From an uncultured Ignavibacteria bacterium (GTDB taxonomy: Bacteria; Zixibacteria; MSB-5A5; CAIYYT01): 64,000 bases of DNA. The position numbers were made by a program, and so were the translations under genes. Below, piece by piece: positions 11,363-56,433 of this stretch; position 1 is the first letter of the stretch, and each line of letters starts with the position of its first letter. The stretch is from NCBI GenBank assembly GCA_964592145.1, contig CAZQBX010000002.1:33634-97633 (forward strand). The letters are read 5' to 3'. The notes under the pieces are model-generated. The model searched no databases, was not told the DNA's origin, and saw nothing but the letters and a program-made list of their open reading frames with translations.

Positions 11363-11598
11363 ATCGTGGTGTCCGTGGCGTCGCGGTTGATCATTGTCAT
11401 ACCCAGCGATTATAGCACAGCAACCGCGAAAATAATACCGGAATTCTATGTTCAACTCATCATGGTAAGAAGGTTGATTTTCCCTTTGAAAAATGCCTGA
11501 TTTTGTTATCTTCGCGGTTCAGCGGCTGCGTGAAATGCGCTGGATAGGACACGTTTTGTCCGCTGGAAACTAGTAGTCACTGATTGATAGGTTAGAGG

Positions 11599-24368: not shown

Positions 24369-25154
24369 TTGCCGGAACATAACGAAATGGGAGAGCTTCT
24401 GGAAGTCTGGACATATACATTAGTTAGCGTGGCTGTGGTGAGTCTGATCTCTCTTGTTGGAGTTTTTACGATGTCGCTCTCCCGCGACCGACTTCAGCGG
24501 ATAACTCTCTATCTGGTGGCATTCGCAGTCGGTGGTTTGTTCGGCAATGCGTTTATCCACTTGTTGCCGGAGGCGTTCCATCACAGTGAATCCTCGATTA
24601 CGACATCACTTTTGATTGTCGTCGGCATCCTGATCTTCTTCGTATTGGAAAAGTTTCTGCGCTGGCGGCATTGCCACGTAACCTCGCACCAACACACCCA
24701 TCCGATGGCGACGCTGAACATCGTGAGTGACGCATTGCACAATCTGATTGACGGTGTGTTGATTGGTTCGACCTTTCTGGTAAGTATTCCGCTGGGAGTG
24801 ACAACCTCGGTAGCGATCGTTCTGCACGAGATACCGCAGGAAATCGGCGATTTCGGCATATTGGTACACAGCGGGATGACAGTAAGGCGGGCTCTGATAT
24901 TTAACTTCTTGTCGGCTTCGGTTGCCATGATCGGAGCAATTGTGGTATTGACATTTGGACCGAGCATCGGTCATTTGACCGAAGCGATGATTCCGGTGAC
25001 GGCGGGGGGGTTCCTGTACATTGCAGGTTCTGATTTGATTCCGGAACTACAGCACGACGTCAAGCTATCGAACTCGGTGGGACAATTTGTCTGTATTATT
25101 CTCGGAGTCGCCACCATGGCACTGTTGGTGAGCTTCAGCTCCCACGCGCATTGA
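24369..25154 (+). CDS. zupT: ZIP-family zinc/iron transporter (ZupT-like)
   Basis: HEIPQEIGDFGIL signature and a His-rich loop (HCHVTSHQHTHP); about 8 TM segments. Confidence 0.85.
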   Translation: MPEHNEMGELLEVWTYTLVSVAVVSLISLVGVFTMSLSRDRLQRITLYLVAFAVGGLFGNAFIHLLPEAFHHSESSITTSLLIVVGILIFFVLEKFLRWRHCHVTSHQHTHPMATLNIVSDALHNLIDGVLIGSTFLVSIPLGVTTSVAIVLHEIPQEIGDFGILVHSGMTVRRALIFNFLSASVAMIGAIVVLTFGPSIGHLTEAMIPVTAGGFLYIAGSDLIPELQHDVKLSNSVGQFVCIILGVATMALLVSFSSHAH

Positions 25155-29688: not shown

Positions 29689-32600
29689 CTAAAGCTCTTT
29701 GCCGCGCTTGAGGCGATATTCGGCCACAAGGCTGTGCATGACCGGAACCGTCAGAACTGTAATGAGCGCAATGGTCATGCCGCCAAACGACGGGATTGCC
29801 ATGGGGATCATGACGTCAGATCCTTTGCCGGATGAAGTGAGAACAGGAATCAACGCTAATAGCGTGGTGGCGACAGTCATCAGCGCGGGACGAATTCGAA
29901 TAGAGCCGGCTTGTATGATAGCTTCTTTGATTTCCACGGCGGTTGCCGGTTTCTTCTCGGTAAAGACTTGCTTGATGTACGTTGAAATCAATACACCATC
30001 GTCAGTCGCTACTCCGAACAGCGCCAGAAAGCCAACCCAGACGGCAACGGAGAGATTGTACATCTTAATATTGTAAAGCTCGCGGACATTTTCGCCAAAA
30101 AGGGAGAAGTTAAGAAACCAGTCCTGTCCGTAAAACCACATCATCAAGAACCCACCTGACCAAGCCACGAAGATGCCGGTGAAGACCAACATTGTTACCG
30201 GCACATCGCGGAACTGGAAGTAGATCAGCATAAAGATGATAAAGAGCGCAAGCGGGATGACGATTCTCAGCGTCTTCTCAGAGCGGATTTGATTTTCATA
30301 ACTGCCGGCAAAACTGTAACTCACACCGGCCGGTATGACAAACTCGCCGGACGCGATTTTTTCTTTCAGGAACTGATCGGCTTCCTCGACCACATCAACT
30401 TCGGCGCGACCCGGTTTCTTGTCAAAGATAACGTAGCCGGTAAGGAAAGTATCCTCGGATCGGATCATCATTGGTCCGCGAACGTAGTTGATTCGCGCCA
30501 GTTCGATCAGCGGAATTTGCTTGCCGTCCGAAGTTGGGACCAGGACGCGTGCTATATCTTCGATGGAATTGCGCAACTCCCGCTGATAACGCACGCGGAC
30601 CGGATATCGTTCACGGCCTTCGACAGTAGTGGTTATCGGCATGCCGCCGAGCGCGACTTCGATCACATCCTGTACATCGCGAATAGATAATCCATAGCGC
30701 GCAATGGCTTCGCGATCGATCTCAATCTCGAGATACGGATTGCCAACGATACGGTCAGCAACAACTGTTGCCGGTTCGACCGAGCCGACCTCCTTGAGCA
30801 GTCTTTCAACTTCCAGGCCCACGGCATCGACTGTTTCGAGATTCGGTCCTTTGATCTTCACGCCCATCGGCGCCCGCATTCCCGATTGCAGCATGACGAT
30901 TCGCGCCGCAATCGGCTGCAGCTTTGGCGCCGAAGTCACGCCAACAACCTTCCCGGCCTTGACGAGTTCTTCCCAAATATCATTGGCCGATCGAATATGA
31001 TCCCGCCATTGCCTGAACGGTTTGCCGTCCTCATCTGGAATCAGTCTGCCATTCTGATCGCGGACGAATGCGTTTGAGTCATCATCGAATCGGAACTTCA
31101 GGCGATTGCCGTCAGTATCGCTGATGTATTCGGATTTGTAGCTGATCACCGTCTCAATCATGGAGGTAGGCGCCGGGTCGAGTGACGACTCGACACGACC
31201 GAGCTTGCCGACGACAGATTCAATTTCGGGAACACTTTCGAAAGCTTTATCTTGAAGTTGGAGTATGCTTAAAGCCTCATCGATAGAAGCATGCGGCATC
31301 GTGGTCGGCATGTAGAGGAACGAGCCTTCATCGAGATCCGGCATGAATTCTTTGCCTGTACCGGGGAAAGCATGATTAAGCGCCACATACGGCGATGACG
31401 AGCGGATGAAGTTCGGCAGAAAACCAAAAATCGAATCAAAACCGAGCCACACCACGAAACCGATCGATACCAATCCCACCGGCATTGAGAGAAACAACAA
31501 TCGGTTATTCAGGCACCAGCGCAACACCGGCTGATAGACATGGATGAATAATTGAAATAGTGCCAGGATACCGCCGATGACAAACACGACGAAAATGAAA
31601 TTCAGCAATTCGCCCCTGCCAACACCCAATGGCATCCAGTGTTTAGTGAGAATTGAAGCGACAAATAAGGCGAGCGCGTAGTTGATGTAGCGCGGCATAT
31701 TCCGCTGAAGTGAATCGGAAAGCATCGGCTTGGCAATCATATAAGCAGCAATTGCCAAGAGCATGAGACCGGCCAGCCACAATGACCAGACAGCAATCAG
31801 GATGACGCCGGCGATGCCGAGGCCGACGGGTATTAGTCGTGAACTGCGTTTTTCCTTGCCTGGATTACTGAACATCATGTGTGCCAGAGCCGGGACGATC
31901 GTCAGTGCAACAATGACTGACGCAACCAGGGCAAAGGTTTTGGTATATGCCAGCGGCTTAAACATCTTGCCTTCGGCAGCTATCATGGTAAACACCGGCA
32001 AGAACGAAACTACTGTGGTGGCGATGGTAGTGAGTACCGCCGAGCCGACTTCCGAGGTGGCTGTAAAGATAATATCGCGGCGTGAGGTACCGGGCGGCGC
32101 TTTATCAAAGTGTCGCAGGATGTTCTCACAGATGACAATGCCCATATCCACAATGTCGCCGATGGCGATCGCAATTCCGGCGAGGGCCATGACATTGGCG
32201 TCGACGCCGAACATCTTCATCCCGATAAACGAGCCAAAGACTGCGACCGGGAGGAGCCCCGATATCAGCAATGAGCTGCGCAAGTGCATTACCATGACGA
32301 GGACGACGATGATCGTGACGATAATCTCATCGACAATTGCGGAGTTAAGTGTTCCGAGTGTCTCATAGATGAGGCCAGTACGATCATAGAACGGAACGAT
32401 GGTAACCTTCGAGACAGTGCCGTCGGCCAAGGTCTTCTGCGGCAGTCCGGCCGAGAGTTCAGCGATCTTGAGTTTGACATTCTTAATCGTCGCCAGCGGG
32501 TTCTGCCCGAATCGCGCCACAACCACGCCCCCGACGACTTCGGCACCGCCTTTGTCAAGCGCCCCACGCCGCATCGCCGGACCGAGCGTAACGGTGGCGA

Positions 32601-33477
32601 CATCTTTGAGCCGGACAGGCAGGTTGTTAGTTTGCTTGATTACCGAATTCTCGAGATCGGTGACGCTCTTTAGGAAACCAACGCCACGAATGGTGTATTC
32701 GACATTGTTGATCTCAATGGTGCCGGCACCGACATCAATGTTGGATTTGCGGACAGCCTCAAAGACGTCCTCAAGCATCACGTCGAAGGCGCGTAATGCG
32801 CTGGGGTTGACATCTACCTGATACTCTTTGACGAACCCGCCAATTGAAGCAACTTCGGCAACGCCTTCTGCAGATTGCAGAGAATAGCGAACTGTCCAAT
32901 CTTGAATCGACCTAAGCTCCTGCAAGTCCCAGCCGCCGGTCGCGTTGCCGGACGGGTCGCGTCCTTCCAGCGTATACCAGAAGACTTGTCCCAGCGCGGT
33001 CGCATCCGGACCGAGGGCGGGCTTTACACCTGGCGGGAGAACTTCCGCCGGAAGCGCATTCAGCTTCTCGAGAATTCGTGTCCGCGACCAGTAGAACTCG
33101 ACGTCATCGGTGAAGATTATGTAGATCGTGGAGAACCCGAGGTAGGAGTAGCTACGAATCGTCTTAACGCCGGGAAGCCCTAACAGCGCCGAGGTCAGTG
33201 GATAAGTAATCTGATTTTCGATATCCTGCGCCGAACGGCCGTCCCATTCGGTGAAGACGATTTGTTGATTTTCGCCGATATCGGGAATCGCGTCGACGCC
33301 GACCGGGTCGCGAGGAAGAAAGTCAATGTCCCAGTCAAACGGCGCAACCATCGTGCCCCAAACGAGTACCGCCAGGGTCATCAGCAAGACGACCAGTTTG
33401 TTGTCGAGACAGAACGCGATGATGCGGTCGATCATTGACATTCTTGATGGATCAGGGATTTGATATCGGTTACTCAT
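29689..33477 (-). CDS. cusA: HME-RND heavy-metal efflux pump, CusA/CzcA family (1262 aa)
   Basis: 12-TM RND layout, family motifs (AIGDIVDMGIV, GIAIAIGD-like), ATGA-adjacent to cusB. Confidence 0.9.
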   Translation of the reverse strand: MSNRYQIPDPSRMSMIDRIIAFCLDNKLVVLLMTLAVLVWGTMVAPFDWDIDFLPRDPVGVDAIPDIGENQQIVFTEWDGRSAQDIENQITYPLTSALLGLPGVKTIRSYSYLGFSTIYIIFTDDVEFYWSRTRILEKLNALPAEVLPPGVKPALGPDATALGQVFWYTLEGRDPSGNATGGWDLQELRSIQDWTVRYSLQSAEGVAEVASIGGFVKEYQVDVNPSALRAFDVMLEDVFEAVRKSNIDVGAGTIEINNVEYTIRGVGFLKSVTDLENSVIKQTNNLPVRLKDVATVTLGPAMRRGALDKGGAEVVGGVVVARFGQNPLATIKNVKLKIAELSAGLPQKTLADGTVSKVTIVPFYDRTGLIYETLGTLNSAIVDEIIVTIIVVLVMVMHLRSSLLISGLLPVAVFGSFIGMKMFGVDANVMALAGIAIAIGDIVDMGIVICENILRHFDKAPPGTSRRDIIFTATSEVGSAVLTTIATTVVSFLPVFTMIAAEGKMFKPLAYTKTFALVASVIVALTIVPALAHMMFSNPGKEKRSSRLIPVGLGIAGVILIAVWSLWLAGLMLLAIAAYMIAKPMLSDSLQRNMPRYINYALALFVASILTKHWMPLGVGRGELLNFIFVVFVIGGILALFQLFIHVYQPVLRWCLNNRLLFLSMPVGLVSIGFVVWLGFDSIFGFLPNFIRSSSPYVALNHAFPGTGKEFMPDLDEGSFLYMPTTMPHASIDEALSILQLQDKAFESVPEIESVVGKLGRVESSLDPAPTSMIETVISYKSEYISDTDGNRLKFRFDDDSNAFVRDQNGRLIPDEDGKPFRQWRDHIRSANDIWEELVKAGKVVGVTSAPKLQPIAARIVMLQSGMRAPMGVKIKGPNLETVDAVGLEVERLLKEVGSVEPATVVADRIVGNPYLEIEIDREAIARYGLSIRDVQDVIEVALGGMPITTTVEGRERYPVRVRYQRELRNSIEDIARVLVPTSDGKQIPLIELARINYVRGPMMIRSEDTFLTGYVIFDKKPGRAEVDVVEEADQFLKEKIASGEFVIPAGVSYSFAGSYENQIRSEKTLRIVIPLALFIIFMLIYFQFRDVPVTMLVFTGIFVAWSGGFLMMWFYGQDWFLNFSLFGENVRELYNIKMYNLSVAVWVGFLALFGVATDDGVLISTYIKQVFTEKKPATAVEIKEAIIQAGSIRIRPALMTVATTLLALIPVLTSSGKGSDVMIPMAIPSFGGMTIALITVLTVPVMHSLVAEYRLKRGKEL

Positions 33478-33480
33478 CGA

Positions 33481-35331
33481 TTAATTCACTGCCTCGAGCG
33501 TCTCTTTGATCTCGCCACAACGCAACATCATTGCGCCATAGAACGAATTGTAAACCGTGTCGACCGTTTGCAGCCAATAGGCGCCTTTGTTATCGCGCGC
33601 CATCGGACAGAACGTCAGGTAGTAATTCATGCCACTGCCGTGACCGAATGCACTCTCAAGCTCAATAATTGCTTTGGAGAGATGGAAGAAGGCGTCGCGC
33701 GCTCCTTCTAAGTCCGTGGCAACGGCGGCCTTCTCGGAATTCTTCTGCATCTGCTGTGCCAATTCCATCCAGCGACTATGTGCGGAGCCGGAGAAAAGGG
33801 ACATATCCACGTTACCAATAGTTTTGGCAAGTTGGGCGGCTGATTGTTGAGAGGCTATGACATCGTCCGCCGCCAACGCCATTTGGAACTTGAAATAATC
33901 ATTGTAGAGCGGAGTCAAGGCATCCCGAGCGGTCTCGGAAACCGCAAGTGTCTCGTTCGTTGATGAGGATCCTTTTGTTGCGGAACTGTGCTCATGCGAT
34001 GCCGGTGCGGCGCCGCCTTCGGGTGACATCATGCTTGGCTTCGCCTGAATCTGCAGTTCGCTGTCGATCTTGAAGGCACCGTTAGTGACGACCATGTCGC
34101 CCTCGACCAGTCCGTCAAGCACGACATAGTGATCGTCGATCCGGGAACCGAGCGTTATCTCGCGACCTTCAAACAAGGGACCGTCTTCGCTGGGAAGCTG
34201 CAGATAAACTACTGCCCGTTTGCCGGTGAAAAGGACAGCGGAGGCCGGCACGAGGAGTGAATTATCGGCTCCGCCGGCGCGTGTATCGACCGCAGACTTT
34301 GCCGTAGCCGTGACAAACATGTCGGGCTTTAGCCGCCCGCGGGCATTATCGACAACTGTACGCACTTGAACAGTGCGAGTCATCGGGTCGACTGTCGGGT
34401 TGATGAAACTAACCTTAGCAGCAAACTCCTCGCCTGGGATCGACTGTGAGTTAAACTTGATTTCATCGCCGATCTTGATGAGCGCCAGATCCGATTCGTA
34501 AGCTTCGAACACCGCCCATAGCTTCGAGAGGTCAGCAATTCGGAATAAGTCCATTCCGGTTTCGACGTACTGCCCTTCGACTACCATCTTCTCAACAACA
34601 GTCCCGCCATCGGGAGCGACCACCGAGATATGATCAGCGACGTCAGTCTGCGATTCAATACTTGCGATTTGTTCATCACTGAAACCAAGGAGTCGCAGTT
34701 TCTCAATGGCGGCGCGAACAGTTGCCTCGGAAGTGCTCTTCAGGATTTCGCTGTTTGATTCAGCCACACTCTGGAGTGACACCCTGGCTGCGATGAGCTC
34801 CTTCTGTGCGGACAGGAGTTCAGGCGAATAGAGTTCAAGCATTTTTTCGCCGCGCCTGACGGGCTGACCTGTTGTGTTGATGTATAGCCGGTCGATACGT
34901 CCACCGATCCGGGCGGTTATACGGGAGAGTTTTGTCTCATCGGCTGACAGTTTGCCGTAGAGTCGCAATTCGCTTTGTGCGGCACCTCGCGTAACCGGCG
35001 AAGTCGAGATTTGTGCAAGTTGTTTGGATGACTCGGACATCCGCAGTTGACGCGGACCGAGGTCTTCCGCGCCATCGGTCGTAAGTGGAATCAGATCCAT
35101 GAAGCAAATCGGACACTTGCCTTCTTTGGGTAGCTTGATCTGCGGATGCATCGAGCAAGTCCAGACCTGTGGCCCATTCGACGTTTCGCCTGACGCGCCA
35201 ATTTCTGGCGAAGTTGATTTTCCGCCGGAAAGGAGTGCACCGAGGGTGAAGGCGACAATCGTCACGGCGGCGATCGCTATCCAGAATGCCGGTTGTCTCA
35301 TCAGACCATTGCGATTGTTGAATTCATTCAT
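33481..35331 (-). CDS. cusB: RND efflux membrane-fusion protein (CusB-like) with N-terminal metal-binding motif and C-terminal DUF3347-like extension
   Basis: WTCSMHPQIKLPKEGKCPICFMDL (CusB/SilB N-terminal metal site), HlyD-like beta-barrel/lipoyl core, and a roughly 180-aa helical C-terminal tail. Confidence 0.85.
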   Translation of the reverse strand: MNEFNNRNGLMRQPAFWIAIAAVTIVAFTLGALLSGGKSTSPEIGASGETSNGPQVWTCSMHPQIKLPKEGKCPICFMDLIPLTTDGAEDLGPRQLRMSESSKQLAQISTSPVTRGAAQSELRLYGKLSADETKLSRITARIGGRIDRLYINTTGQPVRRGEKMLELYSPELLSAQKELIAARVSLQSVAESNSEILKSTSEATVRAAIEKLRLLGFSDEQIASIESQTDVADHISVVAPDGGTVVEKMVVEGQYVETGMDLFRIADLSKLWAVFEAYESDLALIKIGDEIKFNSQSIPGEEFAAKVSFINPTVDPMTRTVQVRTVVDNARGRLKPDMFVTATAKSAVDTRAGGADNSLLVPASAVLFTGKRAVVYLQLPSEDGPLFEGREITLGSRIDDHYVVLDGLVEGDMVVTNGAFKIDSELQIQAKPSMMSPEGGAAPASHEHSSATKGSSSTNETLAVSETARDALTPLYNDYFKFQMALAADDVIASQQSAAQLAKTIGNVDMSLFSGSAHSRWMELAQQMQKNSEKAAVATDLEGARDAFFHLSKAIIELESAFGHGSGMNYYLTFCPMARDNKGAYWLQTVDTVYNSFYGAMMLRCGEIKETLEAVN

Positions 35332-35416: not shown

Positions 35417-35917
35417 TTATCCGTGGTTGTGACCTTCGTGGCCGGTTGGTTCCTTCTTCTCCTCTTTCGGAGCCGGCTTCTGCTCGTCGAGTTTCTTTAA
35501 GTACTTCTGTGCATCCTTCGGAAACATGCTCTTGCACTTATTGCAGCAGAAGTAAACACGACGGCCTTCAAAATCACTGAAGACGGTTTTGTCTTCGAGT
35601 GTTTCACCCGAGACCGGGCAAGCAGTCTGAATATTCTGGAACAGCACACCTTCGGCTGCGGCTTTCCTGAAGTACTTATCCGGTTCGGCTTTCAACTTGG
35701 CGATGCACATCGGGCAACAGTGGTAGACACGTTGCCCCTGAATGTCGGTATAAACAGTCGAATCGATCTTGCCGCCCATTACCGGACAGTGGGTTTGATT
35801 CTTCAACTCCTTGGGAGCGTCTTTCTTTGCATCGCTCTTGGATTCCTGGCCGAATGCCGCCATCGCGGCGACAACAGTCAGCGCGATGATTGCGAACATG
35901 ATTTTGCGTAACTTCAT
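35417..35917 (-). CDS. periplasmic tandem YHS/TRASH-domain metal-binding protein with His-rich tail
   Basis: Signal peptide; two HCPVMGGKI...YHCCPMC / CPVSGE...YFCCNKC YHS-like units; C-terminal HEGHNHG. Confidence 0.75.
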   Translation of the reverse strand: MKLRKIMFAIIALTVVAAMAAFGQESKSDAKKDAPKELKNQTHCPVMGGKIDSTVYTDIQGQRVYHCCPMCIAKLKAEPDKYFRKAAAEGVLFQNIQTACPVSGETLEDKTVFSDFEGRRVYFCCNKCKSMFPKDAQKYLKKLDEQKPAPKEEKKEPTGHEGHNHG

Positions 35918-35933: not shown

Positions 35934-37283
35934 TTATTTATTGGTTGTTGGACTGCTTAGTAACGTTCCAGTGATCATTTCCAATTGTGCCAGACGGGCA
36001 GCGGCGTCTACCTTGGCGCGTTCTGCAGTGAGTTCGAAATCGAACAATTGTCGCTGGGCGTCGAGCAACATCAGGAAGTCAGTCTGTCCCGACTGGTAGG
36101 ATGTGAACGAGACGTTGAGCGATTCTTTCGCCTTAGGGATGAGTCCGTTGCGATATAGACGAAGTTTTCGCAGAGCGTCGGCATACTCGAAATTCGTCAT
36201 CGCAATCATTGAGGCGACGTCATTACGCTCTTCCTGATACATGTACTCGCTCATTCTGACTCGCGAACGCGCGGCATCGCGCATGGCACGGTTCTTGCCG
36301 AACCATATTGGCAAGGAAACCTGGACCGTCAACATGTACTCGTTCATGGTCTCCTTCTCAAGCGTCATATTATCAAGAAGTGTCGAGCGCTCGTATTCAA
36401 TACCAAACATCAATTCCGGCCAGGTCATCTTCTTGACCACCGAAACTTCCGCCCGCTGTGACTCGATTTGTTTAGATATGGATGCCAGATTAGGACTCGC
36501 GACTTCCGCAACTGCAACGAGTGAGTCGGTGGAGAGTGACAATTCCGGAACTGAAAAATCACTTGGCCATGGCAGGCTGGTTCCAGACGGCAGATTGAGC
36601 AGGGCCAATAAACGGGACTGGGCCGGCCGAAGCATCTGCTCCATGCTCCGTATCATCTCCTCCATTTGTCCCAACTCGATTTGTGCCTTGATGAGATCGG
36701 GATGCATTGCCACTCCGGCTTGATAACGGGTTCGAATGACATTTTCGAACTGGCGCATCAACTCGAAGCTCTCTTGCGTCAGGGCAAGCTGTCGTGCGGA
36801 GAGGTAGTAGTCATAGTAGGCGGACTTGACTTGATAGATGGTGCGGAGTTTTTCAGCGAGATAGGACTGATAGTCTGCATCCGAAGTTAAAGCCGCTGCG
36901 TTCTTCTTTGCACCCAAGGTGCCAAACCAAGGGAATGGCTGCATGAGTGCAAATTTCTGGCGGTCAGGCCCTACCGGATCGGAAAACTTCGTGTAACCAT
37001 AAGAGTAACTCAAAAGGGGATTGTCGAGCGCGCCGGCAGAACCCTTCATTGCAGTAGACTCTTGCCACTTCTCGAAGGCTGACTTGATCCCGCTACGATT
37101 ACTGAGTGCCAGATCAATGTAGGTCTGCAATGTGGCATTGGAGTCAATCGCGGTTAAATAGGAGCCAGAGGAAGAGCTGCCGACTGTCAATGGCTGTCCA
37201 TTCAGCAGTGCCGGTCTCGCAATAAATGCCAACAGAACTATGGCGATTAGTTTCTTCACAGGCTTCGTTACATCAAGTATCAT
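35934..37283 (-). CDS. cusC: TolC-family outer-membrane efflux protein (CusC-like)
   Basis: OEP-family tandem repeats, signal peptide, first gene of the efflux operon. Confidence 0.85.
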   Translation of the reverse strand: MILDVTKPVKKLIAIVLLAFIARPALLNGQPLTVGSSSSGSYLTAIDSNATLQTYIDLALSNRSGIKSAFEKWQESTAMKGSAGALDNPLLSYSYGYTKFSDPVGPDRQKFALMQPFPWFGTLGAKKNAAALTSDADYQSYLAEKLRTIYQVKSAYYDYYLSARQLALTQESFELMRQFENVIRTRYQAGVAMHPDLIKAQIELGQMEEMIRSMEQMLRPAQSRLLALLNLPSGTSLPWPSDFSVPELSLSTDSLVAVAEVASPNLASISKQIESQRAEVSVVKKMTWPELMFGIEYERSTLLDNMTLEKETMNEYMLTVQVSLPIWFGKNRAMRDAARSRVRMSEYMYQEERNDVASMIAMTNFEYADALRKLRLYRNGLIPKAKESLNVSFTSYQSGQTDFLMLLDAQRQLFDFELTAERAKVDAAARLAQLEMITGTLLSSPTTNK

Positions 37284-37315
37284 GCCATCGCTCGTAACTT
37301 ATTGTTTATCATTGT

Positions 37316-37321
37316 ATTATA
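37316..37321 (-). promoter_or_regulatory. candidate -10 box (TATAAT on the minus strand) for the cusC operon
   Basis: The minus strand reads ctgTATAATacaatg about 35 nt upstream of the cusC ATG. No good -35 lies at 17 bp; the palindrome below covers that position. Confidence 0.35.
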
Positions 37322-37353
37322 CAGAATAGTACGCGCTGTGATTGTTTCAAGAT

Positions 37354-37387
37354 GGAGAATATTCTACATTGTTGTAGAATATTCTCC
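37354..37387. promoter_or_regulatory. perfect 15-bp inverted repeat (operator or enhancer-binding-protein site) in the divergent cusC / two-component intergenic region
   Basis: GGAGAATATTCTACA-ttgt-TGTAGAATATTCTCC; each arm contains the self-palindromic 10-mer AGAATATTCT. Confidence 0.7.
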
Positions 37388-37487
37388 AATCGAGAGTGTT
37401 AGAGATCGTACAATGAGGGTGGCTGTTTTGGCCGTTGTCCATATGCAACTTGACCTTGGGAGTGTTGTTGCACAAGGCATTCGCCAG

Positions 37488-37503
37488 TGGCATCGGGATT
37501 GCT
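37488..37503 (+). promoter_or_regulatory. sigma-54 (-24/-12) promoter motif upstream of the histidine kinase / sigma-54 activator operon
   Basis: TGGCAT-cggga-TTGCT: GG at 37489-90 and GC at 37501-02 with exactly 10 nt between them, flanked by consensus T residues. It lies about 120 bp downstream of the palindrome. Confidence 0.55.
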
Positions 37504-37513
37504 GTATAGATTG

Positions 37514-38593
37514 ATGAACCTGGAAAGGAAGCGATTGATCAGTATTGACGACAAGCGGTATAAGATTGCCACGATTGCCGCGATAACGCTGTTAACAACA
37601 GCAATTCACTACGGCTTCGTGCTTGAACCGATCTTTGGTGACGCACACTGGATTCACGCTGTTCACAGCCGATTCTGCTACATCCCAATTGTAATTGCCG
37701 CTGCCTGGTTTGGCTTACGCGGCGGATTGTGGACCGCGACCGCGATCACAATAACGGTTTTACCGTACGTTTTTGGCTCACAATCAAGTGAGCACAATTT
37801 TGCGGGAGAGCTGGTTGAGATCGTCTTCTATTTTGCGTTGGCGCTGTTAATCGGCGCATTGGTCGACCGAGAATGGCGGGCGCGCCGGCGGCAGCAAGAG
37901 ACGCAACTTCAACTCGAACGCTCACAGAAGCTCTCATTAGTCGGACAGGTGGCAGCAGGCGTTGCCCACGAACTGAAAAATCCGTTGGCTTCCATCAAAG
38001 GCGCGGTTGAGATCATCAGCGACGAAAACACCACGGAGAATGAAAGAAGTGAGTTCAGCGAGATTCTGTTTCGTGAAATCAAAAGGATGGATGGTACAGT
38101 TACGGAGTTTCTGGAATTTGCCCGTCCTAAACCGACTCGAATGGAGCGGCTTGACCTTTCGCAATTAGTGCAATCAAGTCTTCGTCAGTTGGAGGCACAG
38201 GCAGCCAAAGAGTCGATCACGATCGCGGAGGAGCTTGAGTCGGGCGAAGTAATTGAAGGGGACCGCGAAAAACTCCATCAGCTGATTCTGAACATTGTTT
38301 TGAATGGAATCCAAGCTTCAAGAGCCGGTGGCACCATAAAAGTAGCGCTTCGCGGTCATGCTCACGATGTTGAACTTACGTTCCATGACAACGGCCAAGG
38401 CATAAGCGCCGCAGATCTTGATCGGATTTTTGAGCCCTTTTATACTACGAGAGCCTCGGGCAGCGGGCTGGGGCTGGCAATCGTGAAATCGATCATCGAT
38501 GCGCACGGCGGAACAATCGCCATTAAGAGTGAGGTCGATGCCGGAACGACGGTCCTGGTCCAATTACCGCGCCAAGTCGGGGTCCGGTCATGA
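37514..38593 (+). CDS. sensor histidine kinase (membrane N-terminus, HisKA, HATPase_c)
   Basis: H-box VAHELKNPLASIKGAVEII, N/G1/G2 boxes (LNIVLNGIQAS, HDNGQGI, GSGLGLAIV). The start is ambiguous: ATG at 37514, or TTG at 37535 after GGAAAGGAAG. The ORF-track GTG at 37487 overlaps the sigma-54 motif. Confidence 0.85.
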   Translation: MNLERKRLISIDDKRYKIATIAAITLLTTAIHYGFVLEPIFGDAHWIHAVHSRFCYIPIVIAAAWFGLRGGLWTATAITITVLPYVFGSQSSEHNFAGELVEIVFYFALALLIGALVDREWRARRRQQETQLQLERSQKLSLVGQVAAGVAHELKNPLASIKGAVEIISDENTTENERSEFSEILFREIKRMDGTVTEFLEFARPKPTRMERLDLSQLVQSSLRQLEAQAAKESITIAEELESGEVIEGDREKLHQLILNIVLNGIQASRAGGTIKVALRGHAHDVELTFHDNGQGISAADLDRIFEPFYTTRASGSGLGLAIVKSIIDAHGGTIAIKSEVDAGTTVLVQLPRQVGVRS

Positions 38594-39927
38594 TGCGAAT
38601 ACTCCTTGCCGATGACGATACTGCCTTGCGCCGGGTTCTGGAGTTCAAATTAAAAAAGAACGGATTTGACGTTGCGGCGGTTGCTGACGGTGAAGAAGCG
38701 CTCGCACGTGTGAAGGCCGGCTCCTTTGATCTGTTGCTCGCCGATATTCGGATGCCGAGACTGACCGGTATTGAACTCCTCGAGAAAGTCCGGACGCTGG
38801 AACCTTCACTCAAAGTGATTCTCATGACCGCCTACGCAACTGTGCCACAGGCAGTCGAAGCTGTCAAAATGGGCGCATTTGACTACTTGACCAAACCATT
38901 TGAAGACGAGCAGTTGTTGGTGACGATTGATCAAGCGCTGAAATTCAAGCGGCTTGAAGATGAGAATCAGCGACTGAAGGCGGAACTAAACTTGCGTTCC
39001 GGGCTGCACGAGATCATCGGCGATTCGGAACCCGTTCGAGAGCTGAAGGAGATAATCACGCAAGTCGCGCCAACAGATGCGACGGTGTTGATCACTGGCG
39101 AATCGGGAAGCGGAAAGGAACTTGTGGCGCGGGCAATTCATGCTTTGAGTTCGCGATTTGGAGCCCAGATGGTGGCGGTCAATTGTGCAGCATTGCCGCG
39201 CGACCTTCTGGAATCGGAGTTGTTTGGCCATGTGAAGGGTGCGTTCACCGGTGCAGCGAAGGATAAACGGGGAAAGTTCGAGATCGCCGGCGGTGGAACT
39301 TTGATGCTCGATGAAATCAGCGAGTTGGCATTTGACTTGCAGGCAAAACTCCTGCGAGTAATTCAAGAGCGAACAGTATCGCCGGTGGGAAGCGAGTCGA
39401 ATCGCGAAGTGGACGTCCGCATCATTGCCGCTACTAATGTCAACCTGAAGAAACGGGTCGCCGAGGGTAAATTCCGCGAGGACCTGTTCTACCGTCTGAA
39501 CGTCATCCCGATTCATGTGCCAAGCCTTCGCAAGCGATCTTCCGACATTCCGCTTCTGGTGAGCCATTTCCTCGGACGGCTTGCGCCACGGACCGAGGTC
39601 AGGCTGGACGCGGAGTTGATGGCAATTCTGATACGACACCGTTGGCCCGGCAATGTCCGCGAATTGGAGAACCTGATCGAGCGAATGGTGGTCCTGCGCC
39701 ACGGCGATACATTGACGAAAGCAGATTTACCGCACGACTTCTCCATCGAGTGGGAGAAGCCGGAGGTTCAGCAGGCGGTAACGTTCCATGAAGCGGAGAA
39801 GAGCCTGATTCTGAGCGCGCTTGAAAAAAGCAACGGAAACCGCACCAAAGCCGCGGAATTGCTGGCGATTCCGCGACATGTATTGCTGTATCGACTGAAG
39901 AAGTATGGTATTGTCACCGACGATTGA
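38590..39927 (+). CDS. sigma-54-dependent response regulator (NtrC/ZraR family)
   Basis: REC domain (DDD...K), AAA+ sigma-54 activation domain with GESGSGKE and GAFTGA, C-terminal Fis-type HTH; ATGA overlap with the kinase. Confidence 0.92.
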   Translation: MMRILLADDDTALRRVLEFKLKKNGFDVAAVADGEEALARVKAGSFDLLLADIRMPRLTGIELLEKVRTLEPSLKVILMTAYATVPQAVEAVKMGAFDYLTKPFEDEQLLVTIDQALKFKRLEDENQRLKAELNLRSGLHEIIGDSEPVRELKEIITQVAPTDATVLITGESGSGKELVARAIHALSSRFGAQMVAVNCAALPRDLLESELFGHVKGAFTGAAKDKRGKFEIAGGGTLMLDEISELAFDLQAKLLRVIQERTVSPVGSESNREVDVRIIAATNVNLKKRVAEGKFREDLFYRLNVIPIHVPSLRKRSSDIPLLVSHFLGRLAPRTEVRLDAELMAILIRHRWPGNVRELENLIERMVVLRHGDTLTKADLPHDFSIEWEKPEVQQAVTFHEAEKSLILSALEKSNGNRTKAAELLAIPRHVLLYRLKKYGIVTDD

Positions 39928-51301: not shown

Positions 51302-51782
51302 AGATTTTCTCTCCTGTATGCAATGCAAGCCATTGATCGATGCTCGCCAACGCCGGTTCGATAGCAGCCATTACCTTGGCGGTCATGGTCTCGCTCAGCG
51401 TAGTCACATCAGCGACCTCAACGGCAAGCACATCAATATGCTTCGGCATTTGGTATCCAAGCTGACTCCCCAACTTTAACGCCGTCGGGAGACTCATCTG
51501 GTGGCTGGAGGTGAGATTTCGCGATGGTGTCAGTGTCCCCATTGGGAAGAAGTGTAGGGTTCCAGGCGGAACGCCGCCGGTCACGATACTGTCAATGAGT
51601 AGGACTTTGCTTCTTCTGTTGAGCAAATCCAGCAGGCCGAATCCGGCAACCGGAGCGAATATTACCTCGACCCGGTCACACTCGTGCCGTCTTGTGTGCA
51701 GTATCCCGGCAATTGTCGGTCCGAACGAATCGTCTGACAGAACTTCGTTTCCAAGACAAAGAATCAAGAATGGCTTCAACAT
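51267..51782 (-). CDS. [NiFe]-hydrogenase maturation endopeptidase (HyaD/HycI/FrhD family)
   Basis: LGNEVLSDDSFGP and the DxxH region; overlaps the mvhA stop. Confidence 0.85.
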   Translation of the reverse strand: MLKPFLILCLGNEVLSDDSFGPTIAGILHTRRHECDRVEVIFAPVAGFGLLDLLNRRSKVLLIDSIVTGGVPPGTLHFFPMGTLTPSRNLTSSHQMSLPTALKLGSQLGYQMPKHIDVLAVEVADVTTLSETMTAKVMAAIEPALASIDQWLALHTGEKIYVNREASAAIR

Positions 51783-53260
51783 TGCCTTTTGACGACCTCG
51801 ATTACTTCGCCACTCTCCGCAGAATGAACAACAATCTCCAGAGGCATCTCACCCGGAAGCGAGTGCGTCGCGCAACCAAAACATGGATCGTAAGCGCGAA
51901 AAGCCATCTCAATCCGATTGAGTACGCCGTCGGTAATGGTCGTACCCTTCTTGATCAACCCCTCGGCGGCGCGCTTGATTGACATCGTAATCGGCGCATT
52001 GTTGTTGGTCGTACCGACAATGAGATTTGCTTCGGTGACGATTCCATTCTGATCGGTCTTGTAGTGGTGCGTCAAGGTACCGCGCGGCGCTTCGACGGTG
52101 CCGACGCCCTCGCCAACGATGCCTGTCGGAGGTTCGAGGATGTGATCGGAAGTTATCTCGTCATCCTTGGCTTGCTCCAAAGTGGCTTCGCAGGCAAACA
52201 TCAACTCGACTACGCGCGCCCAGTGTGTTGCCAACGTAGAGTTGACCGGTATCTTCCCAGTGCGATCTCCAGTCAACGTTTCAAAGTAGCGTTCGTACTC
52301 GGCGTGTGCGAGCGGTGTCGCCATACCATCGGCGACATTGAGTCGAGCCAGCGGCGTTGCTTTGTAAACACCAGAGTCCATTCCATCGACGAACCCCTTC
52401 CAACCGACTTTCTTCAAGTAAGGGTACTTGAGATAAGAATAGGGCTCGACGCGCTCTTCAACATACTGGAGATAGTCCTTCGGCTCGTATTTGGCATGTT
52501 CCGATCCGTCGGGTGCTGTTACACGTACTTTGCCGTCATAGAAGGTGACGTGATTGTTGTCATCAACCAGTCCCATATTGTAGGTTTGGTGCGCATAGGA
52601 ATCAGAAAGAATCATTTCGAGATAAGTCTTGTTCGCAAGAACGATATCATTCAAAACCTGAATCGTGAACTTGGCGAACTCGACCATTTCTTCACCGATC
52701 TTGATGATTTCCTGTTGCTCTTCTTTGGTGACGCGTTTGCTCATTCCGCCTGGTAAGGCGGTGACCGGGTGCACTTTCTTACCGCCGATGATCTCGATCA
52801 CACGCTGACCGCGGGCCCGCTGGGCAATGACCTTCTTGCCGACATCCAGACCTACCTTGGCGATTACACCGAGGATATTGCGCTCAGCTTTCGGTGCGTC
52901 GGGACCACAGACGAAGTCCGGCCCGCCCAGAGCATAAAAGTGAGTTGTGTGATCACCTGCATAAAACGCGTTGTAGACTAATTCGCGCAATTTGCGCGCC
53001 GCCGACGGAATAGTAACGCCGTATACGGCATCAGCGGCCTTTGCCGACGCCATGTGATGTGCGTCAGGGCAGACACCGCAGATTCGGGTGGTAATGCGCG
53101 CCAATTCTTCGACCGGCCGCCCCTGACAGAACTTCTCGAAACCGCGAAGTTCCGGAACCTGGAAGTAACAGTTGGCCAACTCACCATCGTCGTTGATGAA
53201 CAGGTGAATCTTGCCGTGCCCCTCAAGGCGCGTGATCGGATCGATGACAATGCTCTTCAT
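51776..53260 (-). CDS. mvhA: [NiFe]-hydrogenase large subunit, Mvh/group-3 type
   Basis: N-terminal RICGVC and C-terminal DPCFGCATH Ni-Fe ligands with a short post-His tail for protease cleavage. Confidence 0.93.
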   Translation of the reverse strand: MKSIVIDPITRLEGHGKIHLFINDDGELANCYFQVPELRGFEKFCQGRPVEELARITTRICGVCPDAHHMASAKAADAVYGVTIPSAARKLRELVYNAFYAGDHTTHFYALGGPDFVCGPDAPKAERNILGVIAKVGLDVGKKVIAQRARGQRVIEIIGGKKVHPVTALPGGMSKRVTKEEQQEIIKIGEEMVEFAKFTIQVLNDIVLANKTYLEMILSDSYAHQTYNMGLVDDNNHVTFYDGKVRVTAPDGSEHAKYEPKDYLQYVEERVEPYSYLKYPYLKKVGWKGFVDGMDSGVYKATPLARLNVADGMATPLAHAEYERYFETLTGDRTGKIPVNSTLATHWARVVELMFACEATLEQAKDDEITSDHILEPPTGIVGEGVGTVEAPRGTLTHHYKTDQNGIVTEANLIVGTTNNNAPITMSIKRAAEGLIKKGTTITDGVLNRIEMAFRAYDPCFGCATHSLPGEMPLEIVVHSAESGEVIEVVKRQC

Positions 53261-54228
53261 ACTTGCACCCTCCGCAGTAGCGACCCGGCCATGCTGAAGC
53301 GATAGAATGTTCCCAGCGGATCGGGAATGGTGTTGATGATCTGTTCGATCTCTTCCGGATCAGTAGAATCGATCACGCTGGCCAGAGCCGAGACCATCTT
53401 GGCACCCTGGTCATTGATGTTTGACGGGAGCCCATAGCAGCCGCGACACGGCATTCCCGCTTTGACGCATTTGGCTCCACAGCCGGAACGAGTTGCCGGT
53501 CCAAGACAGACGATGCCTTGCTCCATCAGACATAGATTCGGATCAGTGACCTTGGCAAACGGGCGTGTGAAGGATTTGATCTTCTTGATATTGCGTTCGC
53601 GCGGGCACTCGTCACAACAGCTTTTGTCGGTTGCGCCGAGAACTGTCCCCTTGGGAGGCAGTGGCTTGTTGTTCTGGAGAATGTCGATTACCGCCATGAC
53701 CGCGTTGACTATTTGATCGGACTGGGGCGGACAGCCGGGAATGTAGTAGTCAACCTCAACTACCTGATCGAGTGATCGAACTGTATTCCAGAACTTCGGA
53801 ATGGTAATGGTCCCTTCGGAAACCTGAACTTCCGGCTGCGGTTCGACCTTGCCACCATTGGCGAGCGAAGGTGATTTGTGATAGACGTAATCGAGGATTA
53901 TCTCTTTGTTGAAGAAGTTCGCCAACGCCGGAATGCACCCTTCGCCGGCACAACTGCCGAAGGCCACCAGGACCACCGATTTTTGGCGCAGCAGTTCGGC
54001 GAGTTCGTAGTTTTCACTAGTCCGAATTGCGCCGTTGAAGAGCGTTAGCGTGATTGACTTGTCTTCCATTGCGCGGACATCGTCGTACTTGGTATCCATC
54101 GCGCAGGGCCAGAAAACGACATCAAAGAAATTCGCCACATCGAGGATCTTCTCTTCGATATCGAGAATGGATATGTCGCAGCCGCCGCATGAGGAGGCCC
54201 AGTATATGGCAAGTTTAGGTTTAGACAT
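53257..54228 (-). CDS. mvhG: [NiFe]-hydrogenase small subunit, MvhG type
   Basis: [23 protein letters not shown] proximal cluster motif. The start ATG at 54228 sits 7 nt after GGAGGTG; the ORF-track start at 54249 is not needed. Confidence 0.9.
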
Positions 54229-54670
54229 GTTGATGCACCTCCTCGGCATTGGGGTCGAAGTTGTAGTCGTGCAATTTCAATGGTCCCAAGGCGCGAATCT
54301 GTTCCGTGAACTCGGTGATGACCTCCTGGAACCGGCCGCCTTCCGAAGCGGAAACCCATTCGAGACGCATCCGGTTGCGAGCGATGCCTAATTCCTGAAG
54401 TAACAGCTGCGTCAGGGGCATTCGACGCATGCACTTGTAGTTTCCTTCGATGTAGTGACAATCGCCGGGATGACAGCCGCAAATCAACACACCGTCGGCG
54501 CCGCGGCGGAAGGCATCGAGGATAAATGCCGGATCGACGCGGCCGGAGCACATCACGCGAATGCTGGTCACATTGGGCGGATAGTGCATGCGTGCAGTGC
54601 CGGCGAGATCGGCGCCGGTATAGCTGCACCAGTTGCAGAGAAAGCCGACAATTTTCGGTTCAAAGCTCAT
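54221..54670 (-). CDS. mvhD: methyl-viologen-reducing hydrogenase delta subunit MvhD (FlpD domain)
   Basis: CNWCSY...CSGRV...[10 protein letters not shown] cysteine pattern of MvhD. Confidence 0.9.
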
Positions 54671-56427: not shown

Positions 56428-56433
56428 TGTCTC

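What the first reader, a model, noticed from the sequence alone, without database searches (positions are those of the whole stretch)
37284..37513. Perfect 34-bp palindrome between the divergent cus efflux operon and a ZraSR-like sigma-54 two-component system
GGAGAATATTCTACA-ttgt-TGTAGAATATTCTCC (37354-37387) is a perfect 15-bp inverted repeat. Its arms each contain the self-palindromic AGAATATTCT, so there are two dimer sites 19 bp apart. It lies about 35 bp upstream of a TATAAT on the cusC side and about 120 bp upstream of a sigma-54 motif on the kinase/regulator side. That geometry matches the E. coli zraP-zraSR arrangement, where the EBP binds palindromic UAS elements between divergent promoters. 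This is a strong candidate binding site for the adjacent NtrC-family regulator, which would then control both metal efflux and its own operon.
Basis: partly seen in the sequence, partly recalled or inferred. Interest (0 to 1): 0.65.

Follow-up and report, generated by a model that had tools for sequence, protein, structure and literature searches.

The report
Enhancer site for copper-efflux sigma-54 regulator
The palindrome is two copies of a conserved 16-bp binding box, most likely for the neighbouring sigma-54 activator, placed between two divergent sigma-54 promoters that drive a CusCBA-like copper/silver efflux operon and the regulator's own operon; this is an ordinary kind of switch, but a previously undescribed motif from an uncultured phylum.

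Summary
The inverted repeat is real and slightly larger than reported: perfect 16-nt arms at 37353-37368 and 37373-37388, with a 4-nt spacer. It is the only perfect long inverted repeat in the window.

The conserved unit is not the hairpin but a dyad box, TGnAGAATATTCTnCA, present in 2-3 copies. In 39 orthologous kinase-regulator loci from Zixibacteria and related MAGs:
- AGAATATT is the most enriched 8-mer upstream of the kinase (31/39 loci, 0.7 expected).
- Box density there is 83-fold above the rest of the loci.

Instead, 29/39 loci carry an outward -24/-12 element 76-109 bp from the proximal box. In the window it is TGGCATgatacTTGAT, 37287-37272, minus strand. So the window has two divergent sigma-54 promoters.

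A metagenome scan with the DNA boxes alone recovered sigma-54 promoters next to 13/16 well-flanked box pairs (6/104 controls). It also recovered regulators that share the recognition helix IPRHVLxYR. Box-less paralogues have other helices.

Verdict: this is the upstream activating sequence of the adjacent NtrC-family regulator. It resembles zraP-zraSR in geometry only, not in orthology. It is a new member of a known kind and moderately interesting. Binding has not been shown.

The parts
37353..37368 (.). Box 1 (proximal to the efflux operon): TGGAGAATATTCTACA, a 16-bp dyad site. Its centre at 37360.5 is about -99.5 from the predicted efflux TSS and -153.5 from the predicted kinase TSS.
   Evidence: logo T-G-n-AGAATATTCT-n-C-A from 84 boxes in 39 loci
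37373..37388 (.). Box 2 (proximal to the kinase): TGTAGAATATTCTCCA, the exact reverse complement of box 1. Its centre at 37380.5 is 20 bp from the centre of box 1.
37272..37287 (-). Sigma-54-type -24/-12 promoter of the efflux operon, TGGCATgatacTTGAT. The -12 element has A instead of the consensus C. Predicted TSS is about 37261, 2 nt before the GTG start.
   Evidence: an outward -24/-12 element 76-109 bp from the proximal box in 29/39 loci; 0.012 expected per locus
37488..37503 (+). Sigma-54-type -24/-12 promoter of the kinase-regulator operon, TGGCATcgggaTTGCT. Predicted TSS is about 37514, the A of the ATG.
   Evidence: conserved in L001, L002, L005, L077 and about 10 more distant loci
35934..37259 (-). 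Outer-membrane factor (OEP/TolC family). Start revised to GTG 37259, giving MKKLIAIVLL..., a signal peptide.
35417..35917 (-). Secreted protein with two YHS/TRASH metal-binding motifs and a His-rich tail. It occupies the position that CusF holds in cusCFBA.
   Evidence: in 9 loci it is the first gene after the sigma-54 promoter
33481..35331 (-). Membrane-fusion protein, CusB-like, with HMBD and DUF3347 domains.
29689..33477 (-). Heavy-metal RND pump, CusA-like (1262 aa). The CusA Met triad M573/M623/M672 is conserved. There is an insertion of about 170 aa relative to CusA.
37514..38593 (+). Histidine kinase: a DUF4118-type 4-TM sensor with the conserved motif HYG...W.H..H.R.CY.P, followed by HisKA and HATPase_c. 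It has no periplasmic domain.
38590..39927 (+). NtrC-family response regulator and enhancer-binding protein: REC domain (D52), AAA+ domain with GAFTGA, and a Fis-type HTH with recognition helix IPRHVLLYRLKKYG.
37409..37414 (+). TACAAT, a possible -10 of a basal sigma-70-type promoter for the kinase operon, 23 bp after box 2. Support is weak.
   Evidence: a TAYAAT-like hexamer at offset 21-23 in 10/39 loci
37316..37321 (-). It is not conserved and has no -35 partner, so it is probably not the efflux promoter.

Best explanation
The repeat is a tandem pair of 16-bp dyad-symmetric boxes (consensus TGnAGAATATTCTnCA, centres 20 bp apart). They form the upstream activating sequence (enhancer) for the response regulator encoded 1.2 kb away at 38590-39927.

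Inferred mechanism:
1. The membrane kinase (37514-38593) senses Cu(I)/Ag(I) or a related metal through His/Cys residues in its 4-TM module and phosphorylates the regulator.
2. Regulator dimers occupy the two boxes through their Fis-type HTH (helix IPRHVLLYR) and assemble into the active AAA+ oligomer.
3. By DNA looping, the oligomer remodels sigma-54 holoenzyme bound at two divergent -24/-12 promoters. One (37287-37272, minus strand) drives the OEP-YHS-CusB-CusA-like efflux operon. The other (37488-37503, plus strand) drives the kinase-regulator operon, giving positive autoregulation.

Shown here by computation: the boxes, both promoter-like elements, their conserved spacing, their co-occurrence with this regulator subfamily, and their link to metal genes.

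Inferred: binding, activation, the metal signal and the transcription start sites.
For: 1. Unbiased 8-mer enrichment in 39 kinase-upstream regions puts AGAATATT first (31/39 loci, 0.70 expected).
2. Boxes with at most 1 mismatch number 49 in 11.7 kb upstream of the kinase against 25 in 496 kb elsewhere in the same loci, an 83-fold difference. Loci of 43-49%-identical paralogues show only background density.
3. The synteny is conserved: kinase-regulator divergent from OEP-YHS-MFP-RND in about 20 loci, and from the YHS gene alone in about 9.
4. An outward -24/-12 element lies 76-109 bp from the proximal box in 29/39 loci, against 0.012 expected per locus. The distances cluster at 76-80, 85-89, 99 and 108-109, in steps of about one helical turn. 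Kinase-side promoters lie 101-152 bp from the box, again in steps of about 10 bp.
5. The regulator has a REC domain with D52, a Sigma54_activat domain with GAFTGA, and an HTH_8 domain.
6. The recognition helix IPRH[VI]LxYR is present in all box-bearing orthologues and in 115/120 top database homologues. Regulators only 44-63% identical that were found purely through the DNA-box scan of metagenomes (L083, L092, L093, L114, L148, L171) carry the same helix. Box-less paralogues carry other helices.
7. In that scan, 13/16 box pairs with TG..CA flanks have a sigma-54 promoter-like site within 260 bp (55-134 bp in the sites found), pointing outward, against 6/104 other hits. Downstream genes include outer-membrane factors and HMA-domain proteins.
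8. L009 and L011 have an extra box plus a canonical TGGCACcgggcTTGCT in front of a second efflux operon.
9. The pump is CusA-like and keeps the Met triad.
10. The E. coli zraP-zraS region read here has the same layout.
Against: - There is no binding, footprint or expression data.
- No rpoN gene lies in the window, so sigma-54 is inferred from the GAFTGA regulator and the promoters.
- The efflux-side -12 element lacks the consensus C (TTGAT), here and in all 29 loci, so it is a non-canonical sigma-54 promoter.
- The predicted start sites would give almost leaderless mRNAs and are unverified.
- About 23 of 39 loci have no sigma-54 promoter on the kinase side, so autoregulation is not universal.
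- In L003 the boxes persist although the efflux operon is absent and both promoters have decayed.
- The metal specificity of the kinase is inferred only from conserved His/Cys residues and from the identity of the target genes.
Confidence: 0.85

Rival explanations
1. One reading: the boxes act on a sigma-70 promoter (TATAAT 37321-37316) of the efflux operon, as a class-I-type activator site or as an operator. Only the kinase operon would be sigma-54-dependent.
For: A TATAAT is present 32 bp from box 1. The box-pair centre would be about -61 from a start site downstream of it.
Against: The sigma-70 scan finds no -35 partner for it. The hexamer is not conserved, not even in the closest relatives L001 and L002, and the efflux side shows no positional clustering of -10-like hexamers. 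By contrast, a -24/-12 element is conserved at a fixed distance in 29/39 loci. GAFTGA-type activators are known to work with sigma-54 (established knowledge; Bush & Dixon 2012, as cited in PMC9045368).
Confidence: 0.06
2. Besides, or instead of, acting as an enhancer, the kinase-proximal box overlaps the -35 region of a basal sigma-70-type promoter (TACAAT 37409-37414). It would then serve as an autoregulatory operator of the kinase-regulator operon.
For: A TAYAAT-like hexamer lies 21-23 bp after the kinase-proximal box in 10/39 loci. In about 14 loci the boxes lie only 20-90 bp before the kinase start, with no sigma-54 promoter on that side. Those operons need some other promoter there.
Against: Hexamers this weak are common in AT-rich spacers: 16/39 loci have one on either side. 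Several of the 10 loci are close relatives. Promoter consensus in this phylum is unknown. This role would not replace the enhancer role for the efflux promoter.
Confidence: 0.25
3. The repeat works as a nucleic-acid hairpin or cruciform, for example a bidirectional terminator or an RNA element, rather than as a protein-binding site.
For: As single-stranded DNA it folds at -15.4 kcal/mol, z = -8 against shuffles.
Against: There is no T-run and no terminator call at the site, and no Rfam family reaches threshold. The repeat lies upstream of both predicted start sites. Complementarity between the two arms is perfect or near-perfect (15-16/16) only in the window and L001-L003 and falls to 8-14/16 in other loci, while each box keeps its own dyad. 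Box spacing also varies (20, 23, 30 bp) and some loci have three boxes.
Confidence: 0.02
4. It is a member of a dispersed repeat or mobile-element family, or a chance palindrome, with no link to the neighbouring genes.
For: The bare 10-mer AGAATATTCT is common. Most of the 120 metagenome hits to two copies 10-20 bp apart are unrelated, including one tandem satellite, L120.
Against: The window holds only this pair plus one coding-region copy. Enrichment at the orthologous position is 83-fold. Among metagenome hits, those with the TG..CA flanks are tied to sigma-54 promoters and metal genes.
Confidence: 0.01

Closest known systems
E. coli zraP-zraSR (ZraR enhancer between divergent sigma-54 promoters)
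   Same: The layout matches, as read directly from NC_000913. A hyphenated inverted repeat built from two dyad boxes (GAGTAAAAATGACTC, two copies) lies between a sigma-54 promoter for a periplasmic metal-stress gene (TGGCACggaagATGCA) and one for the kinase-regulator operon (TGGCATgatttCTGCT). The regulator architecture REC-AAA+-HTH_8 is the same. ZraR binds upstream of zraP and zraSR in ChIP-exo (PMC7657598).
   Different: The box sequence is unrelated. Boxes are 30 bp apart centre to centre, against 20 bp here. The regulator scores 416 bits against a ZraR equivalog cut-off of 760, and the kinase 208 against 479 for ZraS. ZraS is known to have a periplasmic sensor domain, whereas this kinase has a DUF4118 4-TM module. 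The target here is a CusCBA-like pump plus a YHS protein, not the chaperone ZraP.
Myxococcus xanthus CorSR (copper-responsive sigma-54 two-component system controlling the curA cluster)
   Same: [quoted passage not shown]
   Different: CorS has a periplasmic sensor domain and a HAMP domain. Its targets are a multicopper oxidase and a P1B-ATPase rather than an RND pump. No CorR binding motif is given in the text I searched. Orthology was not tested here.
E. coli cusRS-cusCFBA
   Same: A divergent arrangement of a two-component system and a Cu/Ag tripartite RND pump. The pump here is closest to CusA (606 bits, against 379 for ZneA) and keeps the M573/M623/M672 triad. The adaptor is CusB-like.
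   Different: CusR is an OmpR-family regulator acting at a sigma-70 promoter (established knowledge). Here the regulator is an NtrC-family AAA+ activator with sigma-54 promoters. CusF is replaced by a double YHS/TRASH protein. The pump carries an insertion of about 170 aa.
Comparative-genomics regulons of enhancer-binding proteins (e.g. Desulfovibrio vulgaris, PMC4641369)
   Same: The same logic and the same kind of object: regulator genes transcribed divergently from sigma-54 promoters, with conserved palindromic sites in the shared upstream region.
   Different: That study lists no efflux or heavy-metal regulon (0 occurrences of either term). Full-text searches found no paper using AGAATATTCT as a bacterial regulator site and no paper mentioning both Zixibacteria and sigma-54.

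Membership tests
Upstream activating sequence of a bacterial enhancer-binding protein | Two or more dyad-symmetric sites of about 16-18 bp | tested here: met
   Two 16-bp boxes with 14/16 internal symmetry each. Relatives have 2-3 boxes.
Upstream activating sequence of a bacterial enhancer-binding protein | Located roughly 80-150 bp upstream of a -24/-12 (GG-N10-GC) promoter | tested here: met
   Kinase side: canonical TGGCAT-N5-TTGCT, with box centres at about -133 and -153. Efflux side: TGGCAT-N5-TTGAT, with box centres at about -99 and -119. Both are conserved across loci. The efflux -12 element lacks the consensus C.
Upstream activating sequence of a bacterial enhancer-binding protein | A cognate activator with a sigma-54-interaction AAA+ domain (GAFTGA) and a DNA-binding HTH encoded nearby | tested here: met
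   Pfam hits to Response_reg, Sigma54_activat and HTH_8. GAFTGA and D52 are present.
Upstream activating sequence of a bacterial enhancer-binding protein | The site co-varies with the regulator's DNA-binding specificity across genomes | tested here: met
   The helix IPRH[VI]LxYR is found with boxes in 39 loci and in 6 regulators found via DNA alone. Other helices go with no boxes.
Upstream activating sequence of a bacterial enhancer-binding protein | Direct binding by the regulator, and activator- and sigma-54-dependent transcription | not testable with these tools
   Needs EMSA or footprinting, in vitro transcription or reporter assays.
ZraSR/zraP system | The regulator is a ZraR orthologue | tested here: not met
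   NCBIfam NF007689 scores 416 bits against a cut-off of 760. AtoC and NtrC models score as well or better, and all are below their cut-offs.
ZraSR/zraP system | The kinase is a ZraS orthologue with a periplasmic sensor domain | tested here: not met
   NF007688 scores 208 against a cut-off of 479, and matches only the cytoplasmic part (residues 102-355). The N-terminus is a DUF4118 4-TM module with very short loops.
ZraSR/zraP system | The divergent target is zraP | tested here: not met
   The divergent operon encodes OEP, a YHS protein, a CusB-like adaptor and a CusA-like pump.
ZraSR/zraP system | Paired dyad boxes between divergent sigma-54 promoters, one of them autoregulatory | tested here: met
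   Window. E. coli.
CusCFBA-type Cu(I)/Ag(I) efflux system | An HME-RND pump with the CusA three-methionine site | tested here: met
   TIGR00914 scores 749 against a cut-off of 701. CusA is the best PDB match. Met aligns with chain residues 580, 630 and 679, which are native M573, M623 and M672. The residue numbering is from my own knowledge.
CusCFBA-type Cu(I)/Ag(I) efflux system | Control by an OmpR-family CusR with the kinase CusS | tested here: not met
   The adjacent regulator is NtrC-family. The heavy-metal kinase model TIGR01386 scores 98 against a cut-off of 293.
Intrinsic terminator / structured RNA | A GC-rich stem followed by a T-run, or a match to an RNA family | tested here: not met
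   No terminator call at the site. The only Rfam match in the region scores 15.5 against a gathering score of 59 and lies elsewhere.

The most novel reading that the evidence does not exclude
The locus may typify an undescribed, widespread class of Cu/Ag-responsive sigma-54 regulons in Zixibacteria, Latescibacterota, Krumholzibacteria and other uncultured lineages. Four features would define the class:
1. An intramembrane DUF4118-type kinase that senses metal through a conserved HYG...WxHxxHxRxCYxP motif rather than a periplasmic domain.
2. A regulator subfamily with the helix IPRHVLxYR that reads TGnAGAATATTCTnCA.
3. Efflux promoters that systematically lack the near-invariant C at -12 (0 of 29 loci).
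4. Start codons placed about 12-20 nt after the -12 element in several loci (2 nt after the predicted start site in the window), so the sigma-54 transcripts would be essentially leaderless.
Probability: 0.45. Interest if true: 0.5.

Novelty: new member of a known kind. Interest (0 to 1): 0.4.

Why it matters
The result gives a concrete, testable cis-element and regulon for a two-component system in phyla that have no cultured model. It links sigma-54, rather than the usual OmpR- or MerR-type control, to a CusCBA-like copper/silver pump.

It also supplies a simple DNA and protein signature for finding the same circuit in metagenomes: the 16-bp box, an outward -24/-12 promoter, and the IPRHVLxYR helix.

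Two further points follow. The kinase's His/Cys-rich membrane module is a candidate new metal-sensing input. The conserved non-consensus -12 element offers a natural set of variant sigma-54 promoters. None of this overturns current understanding of how enhancer-binding proteins work.

Tried and rejected
- **Third motif copy.** The AGAATATTCT at 57590 is single and inside a coding region, so I rejected it as a regulon site.
- **Short protein query.** A search with only the 77-aa C-terminus of the regulator returned a single fragment and was uninformative.
- **Literature.** Searches for the motif, and for Zixibacteria together with sigma-54, found nothing relevant. A search for sigma-54 control of heavy-metal RND pumps gave only generic hits. 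The Cupriavidus paper assigns zni/zne to RpoD control.
- **Metagenome scan.** The scan for two bare 10-mers was mostly noise. Only the 16 loci with TG..CA flanks were informative. L120 is an unrelated tandem satellite.
- **Sigma-70 scan.** The -10-like hexamer survey showed no efflux-side conservation and only a modest kinase-side cluster.
- **Other sigma-54 promoter.** By eye I found no GG-N10-GC element on the efflux strand between 37289 and 37352.
- **Rfam.** Nothing reached threshold.
- **rpoN.** I looked for it in the window by Pfam and did not find it.
- **NifA resemblance.** Perfect boxes such as TGTAGAATATTCTACA fit TGT-N10-ACA. I kept this only as a remembered resemblance; it was not tested.

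Full report
**Observation**

The sequence reads TGGAGAATATTCTACA-ttgt-TGTAGAATATTCTCCA at 37353-37388. The arms are 16 nt, perfectly complementary, and separated by a 4-nt spacer that is not self-complementary. It is the only perfect long inverted repeat in the window. AGAATATTCT occurs at 37356-65 and 37376-85, so the two sub-palindromes are 20 bp apart centre to centre. A third exact copy at 57590 is single and lies inside a Nuo51-like ORF. I treat it as chance.

**Gene context**

The minus strand carries four genes:
- an outer-membrane factor;
- a secreted double YHS/TRASH protein with a His-rich tail;
- a CusB-like adaptor with HMBD and DUF3347 domains;
- a 1262-aa heavy-metal RND pump.

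The pump is much closer to CusA (606 bits) than to ZneA (379 bits). Methionines align with the three CusA metal-site residues. 'cus-like' is therefore justified for the pump, although there is no CusF.

The plus strand carries two genes:
- a 359-aa kinase whose N-terminus is a DUF4118-type four-helix membrane module, with no periplasmic domain;
- an NtrC-family response regulator with D52, Walker A, GAFTGA and a Fis-type HTH.

The organism belongs to Zixibacteria. The best genome match to the regulator is 94% identical, in a Zixibacteria MAG.

**Comparative test of the boxes**

One genome scan with the regulator returned 80 loci. Forty-one have 56-94% identity and the kinase-then-regulator gene order, and 39 of these include the region upstream of the kinase. 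The results in those 39 regions were:
- An unbiased 8-mer count puts AGAATATT first: 31 of 39 loci against 0.70 expected.
- Boxes with at most one mismatch number 49 in 11.7 kb there and 25 in the remaining 496 kb, an 83-fold difference.
- Thirty-nine loci of 43-49%-identical paralogues show only background density.
- The logo from 84 boxes is T-G-n-A-G-A-A-T-A-T-T-C-T-n-C-A, a 16-bp dyad.
- Most loci have two boxes 20 bp apart. Some have three, or spacings of 23 or 30 bp.

Complementarity between the two arms is perfect or near-perfect only in the window and its closest relatives L001-L003. It falls to 8-14 of 16 elsewhere, while each box keeps its own symmetry. The large palindrome is therefore a by-product of two symmetric protein sites, not a conserved hairpin.

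**Promoters**

It is conserved in L001, L002, L005, L077 and about ten more distant loci.

The efflux side was misread. The TATAAT at 37321-37316 has no -35 partner and is not conserved. What the alignment shows instead is an outward-facing -24/-12 element. In the window it is TGGCATgatacTTGAT at 37287-37272 on the minus strand. An equivalent element is present in 29 of 39 loci, 76-109 bp from the proximal box, against 0.012 chance hits expected per locus.

The box-to-promoter distances fall at 76-80, 85-89, 99 and 108-109 bp. These are steps of about one helical turn, as expected for face-of-helix-dependent looping. The kinase-side distances (101, 109-112, 121, 130-131, 140, 152) behave similarly.

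The mechanical ATG at 37283 lies inside the -24 element. The conserved start of the outer-membrane gene is GTG 37259, followed by a signal peptide.

With canonical spacing, the start sites would be near 37261 and 37514. That places the box centres at about -99 and -119 for the efflux promoter and -133 and -153 for the kinase promoter.

**Independent test from DNA alone**

I scanned metagenome contigs for two AGAATATTCT copies 10-20 bp apart. This gave 120 loci, most of them unrelated. Sixteen loci also had the TG..CA flanks. Their properties were:
- 13 of the 16 carry a sigma-54 promoter-like site within 260 bp (55-134 bp in the sites found), pointing outward. Only 6 of the 104 other loci do.
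- Genes behind those promoters include outer-membrane factors, HMA-domain proteins with CxxC motifs, and small His-rich membrane proteins.
- Where the contig reaches a regulator, it is only 44-63% identical to the window's. Yet it carries the same recognition helix, IPRHVL(I/L)YR(L/M)(E/K)K(F/Y)G.

All box-bearing orthologues and 115 of the 120 best database homologues have this helix. The box-less paralogues have ITRSALIYRMQK, LNRTTLIEKIKK, ISRKSLQLKMKE and others.

This match between a DNA motif and a recognition helix is the strongest argument that the adjacent regulator, and not some other protein, reads the boxes. L009 and L011 add a further case: an extra box and a canonical TGGCACcgggcTTGCT in front of a second efflux operon downstream of the regulator.

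**Mechanism**

The best-supported reading is a classical enhancer. The kinase senses metal. The His/Cys motif HYG...W.H..H.R.CY.P at the outer face of its membrane module is at least 90% conserved across the aligned loci. The kinase phosphorylates the regulator, dimers occupy the boxes, and the AAA+ oligomer activates sigma-54 holoenzyme at both divergent promoters. This induces the pump and, in this lineage, the regulator's own operon.

Activation of the efflux or YHS promoter is the conserved core. Sigma-54 autoregulation is found in only about 16 of 39 loci. In the other loci the boxes sit 20-90 bp before the kinase gene. There, a TAYAAT-like hexamer 21-23 bp after the box in 10 loci hints at a basal sigma-70-type promoter that the box would overlap. 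That part is weak.

**Comparison with known systems**

The E. coli zraP-zraS region, read here, has the same layout. Two dyad boxes form a 20-nt-arm inverted repeat between TGGCACggaagATGCA and TGGCATgatttCTGCT. ZraR binding there is documented (PMC7657598).

Membership, however, fails:
- The regulator and kinase score far below the ZraR and ZraS equivalog cut-offs.
- The sensor module is different.
- The target is a pump, not zraP.

M. xanthus CorSR is a functional precedent for sigma-54 control of copper genes (PMC3707914). The DNA-binding domain is closest to the Aquifex NtrC-family proteins, ZraR and Fis, but with a different recognition helix. No paper in the searchable library describes this motif or this regulon. 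All close homologues carry only generic names.

**Caveats**

- Nothing here shows binding or activation.
- rpoN is not in the window.
- Start sites are inferred.
- The efflux -12 element is non-canonical.
- The metal signal is inferred from the target genes and from conserved residues.

**Verdict**

This is a new member of a known kind and is moderately interesting.

Noticed in passing
window 37272-37287 (minus strand), and the equivalent sites in 28 related loci: The efflux-side -24/-12 promoters never have the consensus C at -12 (TTGAT, TTGAC, TTGTA, TTGTT, TTGAA, TTGAG; 0 of 29 loci). All but one of the kinase-side promoters in the same loci do have it (TTGCT, TTGCG, TTGCC; L025 has TTGAT). 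This is a conserved deviation of unknown meaning.
   Followed up: partly
window 37257-37261 and 37514-37516: With canonical sigma-54 spacing, both predicted start sites fall 0-2 nt before the start codons (GTG 37259, ATG 37514), so both mRNAs would be nearly leaderless. Several relatives show the same geometry (L001, L002, L004, L005, L077), while others have longer leaders with Shine-Dalgarno-like sequences.
   Followed up: partly
L003 1-6004: In this 87%-identical relative, the gene order LptF-LptG-223 aa-HD protein runs straight into the kinase, so the whole efflux operon is absent. The two boxes are kept with one mismatch, but both sigma-54 promoters are degraded (kinase side AGGCTTcgggaCTGCC). 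This may be a natural deletion or insertion variant.
   Followed up: partly
window 29689-33477 (minus strand): The CusA-like pump is 1262 aa. It has an insertion of about 170 aa between the positions aligned to CusA residues 510 and 564, and a further insertion of about 36 aa. Their function is unknown.
   Followed up: no
window 37514-37930 (kinase N-terminus): This is a four-helix DUF4118-type sensor with the conserved motif HYG...FG...W.H..H.R.CY.PI...FG.RGG and no periplasmic domain. It is a candidate intramembrane metal-binding site.
   Followed up: partly
window 36284-36299 (+): A near-consensus sigma-54 site, TGGCACGGTTCTTGCC, lies antisense inside the outer-membrane-factor gene. It is also present in L001 and L002. 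It may be an intragenic sigma-54 site, or simply conserved coding sequence.
   Followed up: no
L009 3636-3762; L011 around 7372: A further box (CTGTAGACTATTCTTCAC) directly after the regulator's stop codon is followed about 110 bp later by a canonical TGGCACcgggcTTGCT and a second OEP-MFP-RND operon.
   Followed up: yes
window 37409-37414 (+), and equivalents: A TAYAAT-like hexamer lies 21-23 bp after the kinase-proximal box in 10 of 39 loci. It may be a basal sigma-70-type promoter overlapping the box.
   Followed up: partly
L120 276-730: A termite-gut metagenome contig carries a tandem array (periods 27/37/64 bp, about 13 copies) built on the perfect palindrome TTGAAGAATATTCTTCAA. There is no sigma-54 promoter nearby. 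It is unrelated to the regulon and unexplained.
   Followed up: partly
L128 and L139 (genes just downstream of box-linked sigma-54 promoters): Small membrane proteins (117-128 aa) with a shared ...FP(Y/F)GLLWW... segment have no Pfam match. The L139 protein also has a His-rich stretch and a CC pair. They may be further members of the regulon.
   Followed up: no
window 24369-25154, 10745-11455, 51776-60813: Other metal-related or notable genes in the window are a ZIP-family transporter, an MntP-type manganese exporter, and a NiFe-hydrogenase/Nuo51-type cluster with heterodisulfide-reductase-like CCG protein. None has a box nearby.
   Followed up: no
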